From NCBI RefSeq assembly GCF_988242995.1, contig NZ_OZ547043.1: 64,000 nucleotides of DNA; one strand, given 5' to 3'. Within the stretch, counting starts at the first letter, position 1; each line of letters opens with the position of its first letter. Of this stretch, positions 28,379 through 29,453 are shown in pieces. The notes beneath the pieces are model-generated. The model had not been told where the DNA came from. It saw only the letters and a list, made by a program, of their open reading frames with translations, and made no database searches. Both the position numbers and the translations under genes were made by a program.

Positions 28379-28522
28379 TATTCTACTCTGGATGTAGAGT
28401 GTTAATTATTTTATAGAGAAACCTTAACGCTATTATATTTATTTGATTGATGACATTGGCATAATCATTCACTAAGTTAATTTATATAGTATCTGCCCAG
28501 ACACTTATTTATAGTTATTAAA

Positions 28523-28552
28523 GGCGCGTCCGACTGGTTCACCGGACGCACC
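28523..28552 (-). terminator. putative terminator of the shoB mRNA
   Basis: ggcgcgtccg / cggacgcacc stem followed on the minus strand by a U-rich tract. Confidence 0.4.
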
Positions 28553-28571
28553 TTAAGTACGTTTCCTTGTG

Positions 28572-28652
28572 TTATAAGAACAGAAGGATCAGCTGTAAAA
28601 CAGCAATGATGATTTTGATAACCCGTTTAATCAGGTATCGGCAATCAGTCAT
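28572..28652 (-). CDS. shoB: 26-aa hydrophobic type I toxin peptide
   Basis: Minus-strand ORF ATG ACT GAT TGC CGA TAC CTG ATT AAA ... TAA = MTDCRYLIKRVIKIIIAVLQLILLFL; too short for the ORF track. Confidence 0.8.
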   Translation of the reverse strand: MTDCRYLIKRVIKIIIAVLQLILLFL

Positions 28653-28974
28653 TCGTTTTTCCTTAAACAAGGAATGCAGCCGTTCAGATTAGCCCTTACA
28701 TCACCCCAAAACTGAACGTGCGAGTTATTGGAATCGAGTGCTGCACTCCACATCAGAGCTTTGACGACACCACTCGTTTCAATGGGGGAATTCAGTGGCA
28801 TGGTGTAAAGCACAGCAAAATTGCCAATAACGAAACCGATTTTAATGTACTTATCAAAAAGCGGTCACGTTAATCTTTTCATCAATGTCGATTTCTTCGT
28901 AAAGGCTCGCGTTTTTTATGTCAGAGATTGCAAGTTGCTTGTACAGGTCAACTAAATTGATCCATAATCATTTC

Positions 28975-29055
28975 CGTTGGAATCGTGTGCTGCACAAAAT
29001 TAAAGTTGTAAAGTAAACCCCCTGTTCCTTACCAGTTCGGGGGTTTTACTTTTTA
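28975..29055 (+). ncRNA. ohsC: antisense small RNA repressing shoB (OhsC-like)
   Basis: Sigma70-like promoter (-35 TTGTAC 28939-28944, -10 CATAAT 28963-28968); 19-nt segment 28977-28995 matches 28728-28746 with one mismatch; terminator 29015-29055; ends inferred. Confidence 0.5.
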
Positions 29056-29072
29056 AAGAGAACGGTATTATT

Positions 29073-29453
29073 TTAACTTTCAATAATTACCGTGGCGCAA
29101 GCATAGTGGCGTTCATCTGCCAGCGTTACATGCATATTTACAACGCCGAGCTTTTCCGCCAGTTTTAATGCCTCGCCCCACAGTCGCAGCCGTGGCTTAC
29201 CAAGCTCATCGTTAAATACTTCAAACTGATTAAACGCCAGACCATTGCGGATCCCGGTGCCAAACGCTTTTGCTGCGGCTTCTTTTACGGCAAAGCGTTT
29301 CGCCAGAAAACGCACCGGCTGGTGGTGCGTTTTCCAGATTGCCCATTCGTTATCGCTTAATACGCGGCGTGCCAGACGCTCACCGGATCGGGCGATCACC
29401 GATTCAATGCGAGCGATCTCCACAATATCCGTACCTAAACCTAATATTGCCAT
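29073..29453 (-). CDS. acpS: holo-[acyl-carrier-protein] synthase
   Basis: 126-aa [20 protein letters not shown]...; start overlaps pdxJ stop by 1 nt. Confidence 0.93.

What the first reader, a model, noticed from the sequence alone, without database searches (positions are those of the whole stretch)
28380..29072. Type I toxin-antitoxin pair hidden in the long yfhL-acpS gap (ShoB/OhsC-like)
This roughly 700-bp AT-rich gap has no ORF in the track. It contains a 26-codon minus-strand ORF (28572-28652) encoding an entirely hydrophobic peptide, MTDCRYLIKRVIKIIIAVLQLILLFL. The same 19-nt sequence occurs twice on the plus strand (28728-28746 and 28977-28995, one mismatch); the first copy lies upstream of the toxin ORF on the minus strand and the second lies between a sigma70-like promoter and a strong terminator on the plus strand. 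That geometry lets a short plus-strand RNA pair with the toxin mRNA leader. It matches what I recall of the E. coli shoB/ohsC locus.
Basis: partly seen in the sequence, partly recalled or inferred. Interest (0 to 1): 0.6.

Follow-up and report, generated by a model that had tools for sequence, protein, structure and literature searches.

The report
Known E. coli shoB/ohsC toxin-antitoxin locus
The gap between yfhL and acpS holds the already described E. coli shoB/ohsC type I toxin-antitoxin pair, here in a minority allele whose toxin-leader and antitoxin pairing sequences have changed together, so the finding is correct but not new.

Summary
Window 28572-28652(-) encodes a peptide identical to E. 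coli K-12 ShoB. Window 28976-29052(+) matches Rfam ohsC_RNA (93.9 bits, E 7e-15). The locus sits between yfhL and acpS as in K-12 and occurs in 5425 of 5426 complete E. coli genomes. The 19-nt repeat (one mismatch) is real: 2 matches in 64 kb against 0.02 expected. So this is a rediscovery of a known type I toxin-antitoxin system.

One result goes beyond the papers I could read. This window carries a minority "W" haplotype (about 31% of E. coli, including O157:H7). In it, 7-8 consecutive bases of the pairing element differ from K-12 in both copies in parallel.
- In 5426 genomes, W/W or K/K combinations account for 5228. Mixed combinations occur in 0 and 1.
- Cognate duplexes are 12-19 kcal/mol more stable than cross-haplotype ones.
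- Complete linkage disequilibrium runs exactly from copy 1 to copy 2 and collapses outside.
- The segment between the promoters is about 20% diverged between haplotypes, against 5-7% between Escherichia species.

This is natural compensatory evidence for a pairing that the accessible papers describe only as predicted. All W alleles keep one fixed U:U mismatch.

The parts
28572..28652 (-). shoB coding sequence: 26 codons plus stop, toxin peptide MTDCRYLIKRVIKIIIAVLQLILLFL
   Evidence: Translation. Identical to K-12 ShoB. Annotated shoB at the homologous place in E. coli genomes.
28659..28674 (-). Shine-Dalgarno AAGGAA (28664-28659) held in a UUCCUU-GUUU-AAGGAA hairpin with the upstream anti-SD (28674-28669)
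   Evidence: Sequence. Six invariant pairs 158-163/168-173 in the consensus fold of 19 haplotypes. SD unpaired probability 0.07-0.22 in all folds. The RBS AAGGAA is 100% conserved in a published survey (PMC11264685).
28728..28746 (-). OhsC target site in the shoB 5' UTR (repeat copy 1). It is mRNA nt 86-104 and ends 75 nt upstream of the AUG. The variable block is 28731-28738.
   Evidence: Repeat. Duplex prediction places OhsC nt 1-20 on mRNA nt 85-104. Covaries with copy 2.
28516..28831 (-). Predicted full-length shoB mRNA (316 nt, 5' UTR about 179 nt). The start is inferred from the -10 box and the end from the terminator hairpin.
   Evidence: Promoter scan. The hexamers match those published for shoB. 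Fold z-score -5.6. The length agrees with the published ~320-nt transcript (PMC5668327). The start site was not mapped here.
28839..28868 (-). shoB promoter: -35 GTGACC (28868-28863), 18-nt spacer, -10 TAAAAT (28844-28839)
   Evidence: The same hexamers are reported as 99.9% and 99.6% conserved (PMC11264685).
28516..28554 (-). shoB terminator hairpin (13-bp stem 28521-28533 / 28542-28554, 8-nt loop) followed on the minus strand by UUUAAUA
   Evidence: Inverted repeat I1. Terminal hairpin in the MFE and centroid folds. Its stem shows paired changes between haplotypes in the alignment (not formally counted).
28939..28968 (+). ohsC promoter: -35 TTGTAC (the 33% variant), -10 CATAAT
   Evidence: Published hexamers are TTGTAA 66.8% / TTGTAC 33.1% and CATAAT 100%.
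28976..29054 (+). ohsC antitoxin small RNA (79 nt by homology to K-12 b4608; Rfam match 28976-29052)
   Evidence: Rfam RF02495, 93.9 bits, E 6.8e-15, model positions 1-77 of 77. Alignment to the annotated K-12 ohsC.
28977..28995 (+). OhsC pairing element (repeat copy 2), nt 2-20 of the RNA. The variable block is 28980-28987.
   Evidence: The published model has the OhsC 5' end pairing with the target.
29010..29057 (+). OhsC intrinsic terminator: about 15-bp stem, 13-nt loop, U run. It ends about 16 nt from the acpS stop codon.
   Evidence: Structure line of the Rfam alignment. Inverted repeat I3. RNAfold. The window allele has one non-standard pair and a weaker fold (whole OhsC -19.3 against -30.2 kcal/mol for K-12).
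28731..28986 (.). W/K haplotype block: a segment in complete linkage disequilibrium, bounded by the variable blocks of the two pairing elements
   Evidence: r2 = 1.00 for the W/K-defining sites from 28731 to 28986. Outside, r2 is 0.21 at 28703 and 0.13/0.07/0.11 at 29008/29009/29018. W-to-K divergence is 0.196 in 28832-28975 against 0.043-0.048 in yfhL and acpS.

Best explanation
This is the chromosomal shoB/ohsC type I toxin-antitoxin locus of Escherichia coli. A sigma-70 promoter on the minus strand makes a ~316-nt shoB mRNA with a ~179-nt structured leader and a 26-codon ORF for a small membrane-depolarizing peptide. A divergent plus-strand promoter makes the 79-nt OhsC RNA. Nucleotides 1-20 of OhsC pair with leader nt 85-104, 75 nt upstream of the AUG, and this keeps ShoB from being made. 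In the full-length mRNA the Shine-Dalgarno sequence is locked in a local hairpin, and the invariant flanks of the OhsC site are held by the mRNA's own 5' end. Published work shows that only a form shortened by 41 nt at the 5' end is translated. The window carries the 'W' specificity haplotype. Its 8-nt central block differs from K-12 in both partners, so W OhsC matches W shoB (10 + 9 bp around one U:U mismatch, -34 kcal/mol) but not K shoB. Basis of each step: identity, anatomy, covariation, linkage and energetics are shown here. Toxicity, repression by OhsC and the two transcript forms are published for the K-12 allele. That the W allele works the same way, that the U:U mismatch is tolerated, and how pairing 75 nt upstream blocks translation (standby-site competition or a structure switch) are inferred.
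For: Identity: ShoB is 26/26 identical to K-12; Rfam ohsC_RNA scores 93.9 bits; K-12 annotates shoB b4687 and ohsC b4608 at the homologous positions; 5425 of 5426 E. coli genomes hold the region; both promoters use the published hexamers. Pairing: the 19-nt repeat is far beyond chance. Among 81 metagenome and genome loci with both copies read there were K/K perfect 34, K/K with a U.G wobble 14, W/W 31, two minor variants, and no W/K mixture; the 3 further loci read from an alignment are K-type with two wobbles. In 5426 genomes W+W occurs in 1670, K+K in 3052 plus 506, chimeras in 0 and 1. Position 11 shows U-A, U.G and C-G states, and all K-type copy differences give G.U. Duplex energies are WxW -34.2 and KxK -41.4 against -21.5 and -22.9 for cross pairs; shuffled controls average -15.4, sd 2.5. 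The LD block is bounded by the two elements, with 19.6% divergence inside and about 4.5% in the flanks. Leader structure: z = -5.6; the consensus fold puts the variable block in an internal loop and pair 8-101 is G.U 9 / A-U 6 / G-C 4. Published experiments: ShoB depolarizes 98% of cells and OhsC prevents its expression (PMC8309996); the ~320-nt transcript is inactive and the ~280-nt one active (PMC5668327 and PMC5066626).
Against: Nothing contradicts the identification. The weak points concern mechanism. (1) The papers I could read describe the OhsC-shoB pairing as predicted only, and no transcript or toxicity data exist for this allele. (2) The W allele has a fixed U:U mismatch in the middle of the duplex, and none of 5426 genomes repairs it, so perfect complementarity is evidently not required or not selected. 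(3) Folding the +42 form with or without the OhsC site blocked does not open or close the SD hairpin, so the step after pairing is unresolved. (4) Most leader pairs are invariant, so the structure rests on thermodynamics plus one variable pair. (5) Perfect linkage over 249 bp would be expected to some degree without selection.
Confidence: 0.95

Rival explanations
1. The W/K association of the two copies is neutral. A single diverged ~260-bp segment was imported or retained once, and the two sites stay together only because they are 249 bp apart. There is no selection for RNA-RNA complementarity.
For: E. coli recombination tracts are usually longer than 249 bp (general knowledge), so few breakpoints are expected between the copies. 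All sites between them are also in complete LD. The metagenome loci and the sequenced genomes are phylogenetically non-independent. One recombinant with intact shoB does exist.
Against: Neutral linkage explains co-inheritance but not why the two blocks carry the same new 8-nt sequence (7 of 8 positions identical) while lying in unrelated flanking sequence. The LD block begins and ends exactly at the two variable blocks and drops to r2 0.07-0.22 within 20-30 nt outside, so breakpoints are frequent right next to the block but absent inside it. K-type single differences are all wobble-compatible, and one position completes a U-A to C-G exchange.
Confidence: 0.15
2. shoB translation is coupled to an upstream reading frame, as in hok/mok. 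A 54-codon frame (28813..28649) lies in the leader, covers the OhsC site, and ends in a TGA overlapping the shoB ATG (ATGA). OhsC would then act by blocking translation of this frame.
For: The frame has no stop across the whole leader, while the other two frames have 4 each. It is open in most haplotypes and in E. albertii, E. whittamii and three other species representatives. The SD hairpin would need unwinding.
Against: Variable sites in that frame are 17 non-synonymous to 2 synonymous, against 7 to 6 in shoB itself. There is no Shine-Dalgarno-like sequence before its GTG or internal ATG (sequence). Two independent assemblies (L021, L031) share an indel that closes the frame while ShoB stays intact. 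The leader is so conserved that an open frame is weak evidence; about a 5% chance for this specific frame is my estimate.
Confidence: 0.07
3. The repeat and the ORF are chance features of an AT-rich spacer: a duplication remnant and a spurious short ORF, with no toxin-antitoxin function.
For: Short ORFs are common in all six frames of the gap. NCBIfam has no HMM hit for the 26-aa peptide.
Against: Repeat expectation is 0.02 per window. The Rfam match is full length and far above gathering. The peptide is conserved across Escherichia species with conservative I/V/L/A changes only. Toxicity and repression are published. The two copies covary.
Confidence: 0.01

Closest known systems
shoB/ohsC of E. 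coli K-12 MG1655 (b4687/b4608; formerly ryfB/ryfC; Kawano 2005, Fozo 2008 as cited)
   Same: Same locus. The ShoB peptide is identical. The position between yfhL and acpS, the promoter hexamers (except one base of the ohsC -35), the RBS hairpin, the OhsC 3' terminator domain and the divergent layout are the same. The 19-nt complementarity lies at the same place in both RNAs.
   Different: The central 8 nt of the pairing element are GAATCGAG/GAATCGTG instead of AGGGTGCA in both copies. There is one internal U:U mismatch, whereas K-12 is perfect. The inter-promoter region, including the published CpxR box CB2 region, is about 20% diverged. The window's OhsC terminator stem is weaker.
zorO/orzO and zorP/orzP of E. 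coli O157:H7
   Same: A divergently encoded antitoxin whose 5' ~18 nt pairs with a long toxin 5' UTR. The pairing region is variable and gives pair-specific repression. The 5'-processed mRNA is the active form. One internal mismatch is tolerated experimentally (15 nt continuous, or 17 nt with one mismatch).
   Different: In zor/orz the variants are paralogous copies in one genome, so specificity plausibly avoids cross-talk. Here the variants are alleles of a single-copy locus in different strains. The toxin families are unrelated in sequence.
tisB/istR-1
   Same: Divergent arrangement. The antitoxin 5' end binds far upstream of a sequestered RBS. The primary transcript is inactive and a processed form is active.
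   Different: tisB is LexA-controlled, and IstR-1 is shown to compete with standby ribosomes. No standby site has been shown for shoB, and my folds do not identify one.
dinQ/agrB
   Same: A four-element leader model in which the 5' end sequesters the antisense target. A shoB analogue was proposed in PMC5066626. My folds reproduce the 5'-end/target helix.
   Different: The predicted opening of the SD after 5' processing, and its re-closing on antitoxin binding, is not reproduced for shoB by thermodynamic folding.
hok/sok (with mok)
   Same: A small membrane toxin, an antisense RNA, and an upstream frame whose stop overlaps the toxin start.
   Different: Sok is cis-encoded and overlaps mok. The shoB upstream frame shows no coding or initiation signature.

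Membership tests
shoB/ohsC type I toxin-antitoxin locus (Escherichia) | 26-aa ShoB peptide | tested here: met
   26/26 identity to K-12 ShoB. Annotated as WP_000128776.1 ShoB in the best-matching genome. NCBIfam has no HMM for it, so the test is by identity.
shoB/ohsC type I toxin-antitoxin locus (Escherichia) | OhsC small RNA (Rfam RF02495) encoded divergently | tested here: met
   93.9 bits against a gathering score of 50, E 6.8e-15, model 1-77 of 77, window 28976-29052(+).
shoB/ohsC type I toxin-antitoxin locus (Escherichia) | About 19 nt of complementarity between the OhsC 5' end and the shoB 5' UTR | tested here: met
   18 of 19 positions plus a terminal G.U. Duplex -34.2 kcal/mol against a shuffled mean of -15.4, sd 2.5. 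One U:U mismatch, fixed in this haplotype.
shoB/ohsC type I toxin-antitoxin locus (Escherichia) | Genomic position between yfhL and acpS | tested here: met
   ORFs and annotation of homologous regions.
shoB/ohsC type I toxin-antitoxin locus (Escherichia) | Published promoter and RBS elements | tested here: met
   GTGACC/TAAAAT, TTGTAC/CATAAT and AAGGAA are all present, as tabulated in PMC11264685.
shoB/ohsC type I toxin-antitoxin locus (Escherichia) | ShoB toxic on overexpression, toxicity relieved by OhsC | not testable with these tools
   Published for the K-12 allele. The peptide is identical here, but the W-type OhsC/leader pair has not been tested as a pair in any paper I could read.
shoB/ohsC type I toxin-antitoxin locus (Escherichia) | Both transcripts expressed (~320/280-nt shoB, ~80-nt OhsC) | not testable with these tools
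   Only predicted here: 316 nt and 79 nt from promoter and terminator positions.
hok/sok-type coupling through an upstream frame | A translated leader ORF required for toxin translation | tested here: not met
   The frame is open, but variable sites are 17 non-synonymous to 2 synonymous, there is no SD, and natural frameshift alleles exist.
dinQ/agrB-type leader switch or tisB-type standby site | 5' processing exposes the RBS or a standby site, and antitoxin binding reverses it | tested here: inconclusive
   Removing nt 1-41 raises OhsC-site accessibility (0.16 to 0.32 in W, 0.32 to 0.43 in K). SD accessibility stays at 0.07-0.22 in all states.

The most novel reading that the evidence does not exclude
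E. coli maintains two old, internally co-adapted specificity alleles of a single-copy type I toxin-antitoxin locus. In the W allele (about 31% of genomes, including this window and O157:H7) the 8-nt core of the OhsC-shoB duplex was replaced in both RNAs. The two alleles are predicted to be largely orthogonal. The block of complete linkage is bounded exactly by the two interacting elements, and its interior is about three times more diverged than the same segment between Escherichia species. That pattern is what epistatic selection on an RNA-RNA interaction would leave, and it would be the first (natural, compensatory) evidence that the predicted pairing is the functional one. It also predicts that the single recombinant strain (Z1323CEC0015) has an uncontrolled or otherwise compensated shoB.
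Probability: 0.55. Interest if true: 0.4.

Novelty: already known. Interest (0 to 1): 0.2.

Why it matters
As a scan result it matters little: shoB/ohsC has been known since 2005-2008 and is annotated in reference genomes. It does show that the first-stage reader can recover a real, unannotated small-ORF/sRNA module from raw sequence.

The side result has modest value for the type I toxin-antitoxin field. A 2024 survey noted large variation in the shoB-ohsC pairing regions and said that sufficient pairing potential "cannot yet be said" for this pair. The per-genome analysis here answers the sequence side of that question:
- The variation consists almost entirely of two matched haplotypes. Matched W/W or K/K combinations were detected in 5228 of 5426 genomes, against 1 mismatched.
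- The analysis identifies which nucleotides are free to vary. In the predicted fold these are the internal-loop block.
- It provides ready-made natural "compensatory mutants" and one natural mismatch strain for experiments.

Tried and rejected
1. Upstream-ORF (mok-like) coupling. I examined the 54-codon leader frame that ends in ATGA at the shoB start and rejected it as unlikely. There is no synonymous excess, no SD, and natural frameshift alleles exist.

2. dinQ-like SD switch. I folded the +1 and +42 mRNAs with the OhsC site free or blocked, for both haplotypes. The SD hairpin never opened, so I could not support or exclude the switch.

3. NCBIfam search with the 26-aa peptide gave no family. 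The peptide is also too short for the Pfam tool (30-aa minimum).

4. Simple terminator scan found 0 sites. This is a limit of its loop-length rule, not evidence of absence.

5. Mobile-element origin of the W block. There is no phage match. The only 'plasmid' matches are 1.4-4.9 Mb records, which are mislabelled chromosomes.

6. Search for W alleles that repair the U:U mismatch found none in 5426 genomes.

7. The primary paper (Fozo 2008, PMC2597788) and the 2012 review (10.4161/rna.22568) are not held. I cannot exclude that strain-matched variation of the pairing region was already noted there. Text searches for ohsC with 'compensatory' found only unrelated uses of the abbreviation OHSC.

8. 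The stored loci for E. albertii and E. whittamii were cut before ohsC, so their copy 2 could not be read.

Full report
**Observation**

The region was read directly. The minus-strand ORF 28572-28652 translates to MTDCRYLIKRVIKIIIAVLQLILLFL plus a stop. The 19-nt direct repeat is at 28728-28746 and 28977-28995. It has one mismatch (A at 28737, T at 28986), and the similarity does not extend beyond 19 nt. With up to three mismatches allowed, the whole 64-kb window holds exactly these two copies, against 0.02 expected from dinucleotide-preserving shuffles.

Copy 2 starts one base after the predicted start of a plus-strand transcript. That transcript is driven by TTGTAC-18-CATAAT (28939-28968) and ends in a long G+C-rich hairpin plus a T run (29010-29057). 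The gap is AT-rich, with G+C 0.35-0.44 against 0.50-0.58 in the flanks.

**Identity**

- A scan of 5.5 kb around the site against all Rfam families gave one hit: RF02495 ohsC_RNA at 28976-29052(+), 93.9 bits (gathering score 50), E 6.8e-15, covering the whole model.
- The 693-bp gap matches 5425 of 5426 complete E. coli genomes, always on the chromosome, with shoB annotated under the match.
- In K-12 MG1655 the homologous interval between yfhL and acpS carries shoB (b4687) and ohsC (b4608). The base-by-base alignment puts the K-12 ohsC start at window 28976.
- The peptide is identical to K-12 ShoB.
- The minus-strand promoter GTGACC-18-TAAAAT (28868-28839), the ohsC hexamers and the RBS AAGGAA are those tabulated in a 2,000-genome survey (PMC11264685).

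**What is known experimentally (from papers, K-12 allele)**

- ShoB overproduction depolarizes 98% of cells and kills them. OhsC prevents its expression (PMC8309996).
- A ~320-nt full-length shoB transcript and a ~280-nt transcript shortened at the 5' end exist. Only the shorter one is translated (PMC5668327). The second 5' end lies 41 nt downstream of the first (PMC5066626).
- The pairing of the OhsC 5' end with 19 nt of the shoB 5' UTR is described as predicted (PMC3919570).
- My scan of one genome per GTDB species, using a degenerate back-translation of the first ten codons, found only Escherichia: albertii, whittamii, two unnamed species and two 'coli' representatives. This agrees with the reported distribution.

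**Anatomy in this window**

From the -10 box I place the shoB start near 28831. From the terminal hairpin (13-bp stem 28521-28533/28542-28554) I place the end near 28516. This gives 316 nt and a 5' UTR of about 179 nt, in line with the published ~320 nt.

The mRNA folds much better than shuffles (-106.4 kcal/mol, z = -5.6). In the fold, and in the consensus fold of 19 distinct indel-free leader haplotypes:
- Nt 1-8 and 15-31 pair with nt 101-108 and 77-93. The mRNA's own 5' end therefore holds both invariant flanks of the OhsC site (nt 86-104).
- The central variable block (nt 94-100) lies in an internal loop. All seven bases are unpaired in K-12, and three in this window.
- The SD is in a UUCCUU-GUUU-AAGGAA hairpin that is invariant in all loci.

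Most pairs never vary, so the structure rests mainly on energy. Pair 8-101 does take three standard forms (G.U 9, A-U 6, G-C 4).

**The new element: two matched haplotypes**

The alignment with K-12 showed that K-12 has TTGAGGGTGCATGCTGCAC in both copies. The window has TTGGAATCGAGTGCTGCAC and TTGGAATCGTGTGCTGCAC. Seven to eight consecutive positions are changed in parallel in two places 249 bp apart, inside otherwise unrelated flanks.

To see whether this is general, I fetched 84 metagenome loci with a conserved 31-nt anchor over the shoB start and 6 species representatives. Among the 81 of these loci where both copies could be read:
- 34 were K/K perfect.
- 14 were K/K with copy 2 G at position 11, which is a U.G wobble in RNA.
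- 31 were W/W, always with the same U:U mismatch.
- One had a wobble at position 7 together with a compensated C-G at position 11.
- One low-coverage contig had a 1-nt deletion.
- Three more loci, read from an alignment, were K-type with two wobbles.
- No locus mixed W and K.

Every single-base difference between the copies within the K class has A in copy 1 and G in copy 2, which is the wobble-compatible direction.

**Whole-collection test**

I built 70-nt composite queries: a 38-nt copy-1 context joined to a 32-nt copy-2 context. Megablast then has to seed across the variable block, so coverage of 80% or more means both alleles are present in one genome. Results in 5426 complete genomes:

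| Composite query | Genomes with any match | Genomes with both alleles |
|---|---|---|
| W copy 1 + W copy 2 | 1696 | 1670 |
| K copy 1 + K copy 2 (A) | 3706 | 3052 |
| K copy 1 + K copy 2 (G) | 3693 | 506 |
| W copy 1 + K copy 2 (chimera) | 4759 | 0 |
| K copy 1 + W copy 2 (chimera) | 5384 | 1 |

- The W share (31%) equals the published 33% share of the TTGTAC -35 variant.
- The single exception, strain Z1323CEC0015, is a clean recombinant. Its breakpoint lies in the conserved stretch between the promoters, and its shoB ORF and promoter are intact.
- No genome carries a W allele with the mismatch repaired.
- These counts need exact 28-mers, so they are lower bounds. The genomes are not phylogenetically independent.

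**Energetics**

The first 24 nt of OhsC were tested against the 5' UTR.

| OhsC x shoB leader | Duplex energy (kcal/mol) |
|---|---|
| W x W | -34.2 |
| K x K | -41.4 |
| W x K | -21.5 |
| K x W | -22.9 |
| Shuffled OhsC 5' ends | mean -15.4, sd 2.5, best -26.3 |

The two alleles are thus predicted to be largely orthogonal. The W duplex (10 + 9 bp around a 1x1 loop) would satisfy the rule established experimentally for zor/orz, which is 17 nt with one internal mismatch.

**Is the linkage more than proximity?**

Across 46 loci with full flanks (27 K, 19 W), r2 with the W/K class is 1.00 for sites from 28731 to 28986. These are the first and last variable bases of the two elements. Outside that span r2 falls to 0.21-0.22 at 28703 and 28682 on one side, and to 0.13, 0.07 and 0.11 at 29008, 29009 and 29018 on the other.

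Divergence between the classes, by segment:
- yfhL 0.043 and acpS 0.048, close to within-class diversity.
- Inter-promoter segment 28832-28975: 0.196, against 0.05-0.07 between K-type E. coli and three other Escherichia species representatives.
- The two copies: 0.37 and 0.35.

All non-coli representatives are K-type, so W is the derived or imported state. I found no phage or true plasmid source.

A block of deep divergence whose limits coincide with two interacting RNA elements is what epistatic selection for complementarity would produce. A neutral single import cannot be excluded for the co-inheritance. It does not explain why both blocks carry the same new sequence.

**Mechanism after pairing**

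I tested two ideas.

1. *A mok-like upstream frame.* The frame 28813..28649 is open across the leader, covers the OhsC site, and ends in a TGA overlapping the shoB ATG. It stays open in most haplotypes and species. Against it, its variable sites are 17 non-synonymous to 2 synonymous (shoB: 7 to 6), it lacks an SD, and two independent assemblies share an indel that closes it. I consider it a chance open frame in a conserved structured leader.

2. *A dinQ-like switch.* Removing nt 1-41 roughly doubles the accessibility of the OhsC site in W (0.16 to 0.32) and raises it in K (0.32 to 0.43). SD accessibility remains 0.07-0.22 whether or not the OhsC site is blocked.

The step from pairing to translational silence therefore remains inferred by analogy with tisB/istR-1, zorO/orzO and dinQ/agrB.

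**Verdict**

The finding is real and correctly interpreted, but already known. The interest of the finding as handed over is low.

The matched-haplotype result is a modest addition. It addresses a gap stated in the 2024 survey, with the caveat that the 2008 primary paper and the 2012 review could not be read.

Noticed in passing
window 28649-28813 (-): A 54-codon frame in the shoB leader is open across the whole 5' UTR, spans the OhsC site, and its TGA overlaps the shoB ATG (ATGA). It is open in most Escherichia haplotypes, but shows no coding signature and is broken by an indel in L021 and L031.
   Followed up: yes
L094 (NZ_CP148423.1, E. coli Z1323CEC0015), locus 1046-1557: The only genome of 5426 with a K-type shoB leader target and a W-type OhsC. 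It is a clean recombinant with the breakpoint in the conserved AGATTGCAAGTTGCTTGTA between the promoters, and its shoB ORF and promoter are intact. It is a natural toxin/antitoxin mismatch.
   Followed up: partly
L093 (NZ_CM172720.1, E. coli FCI29), copy 1: A W-type leader target with a 1-nt insertion (TTGGAATCGAGCTGCTGCAC), which adds a bulge next to the U:U mismatch. 26 W-type genomes lacked an exact match to one of the two W alleles, and I did not survey what they carry.
   Followed up: partly
window 29005-29024 and 29038-29052: The window's OhsC terminator stem differs from K-12 (GTAAACCCCCT against AAAAACCCCCG region). It has one non-standard pair, and the whole RNA folds at -19.3 against -30.2 kcal/mol. 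These variants are not linked to the W/K class (r2 0.07-0.13), although they lie about 20 nt from copy 2.
   Followed up: partly
window 29010-29075: The nearly palindromic OhsC terminator ends about 16 nt from the acpS stop codon on the opposite strand. It may also terminate the convergent era-recO-pdxJ-acpS transcript.
   Followed up: no
L061 (metagenome contig), about 45 nt beyond copy 1 on the window plus strand, within the shoB 5' leader (corresponds to window ~28790): The shoB leader is interrupted by unrelated DNA, so the promoter and ohsC are displaced. This is an example of the ~1% 'interrupted' loci reported in the literature.
   Followed up: no
L008, L026, L051, L052, L066-L068 (corresponds to window ~28146, the 5' end of yfhL): In these loci, and in 160 of 5426 E. 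coli genomes, the DNA upstream of yfhL is replaced by an element carrying a tyrosine recombinase/integrase gene, and the first codons of yfhL differ (MSLLITKRC against MALLITKKC). This looks like an integrative element using the 5' end of yfhL as its attachment site. It is not present in this window and is unrelated to W/K.
   Followed up: partly
window 28521-28554: The shoB terminator stem shows paired differences between haplotypes and species (for example GCGCGTCCG/CGGACGCAC against GCGCGCCTG/CTGACGCGC), which suggests compensatory change. I did not count the pairs formally.
   Followed up: no
literature (PMC8081044): [quoted passage not shown] I did not check whether the interaction uses the haplotype-variable 5' block.
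   Followed up: no
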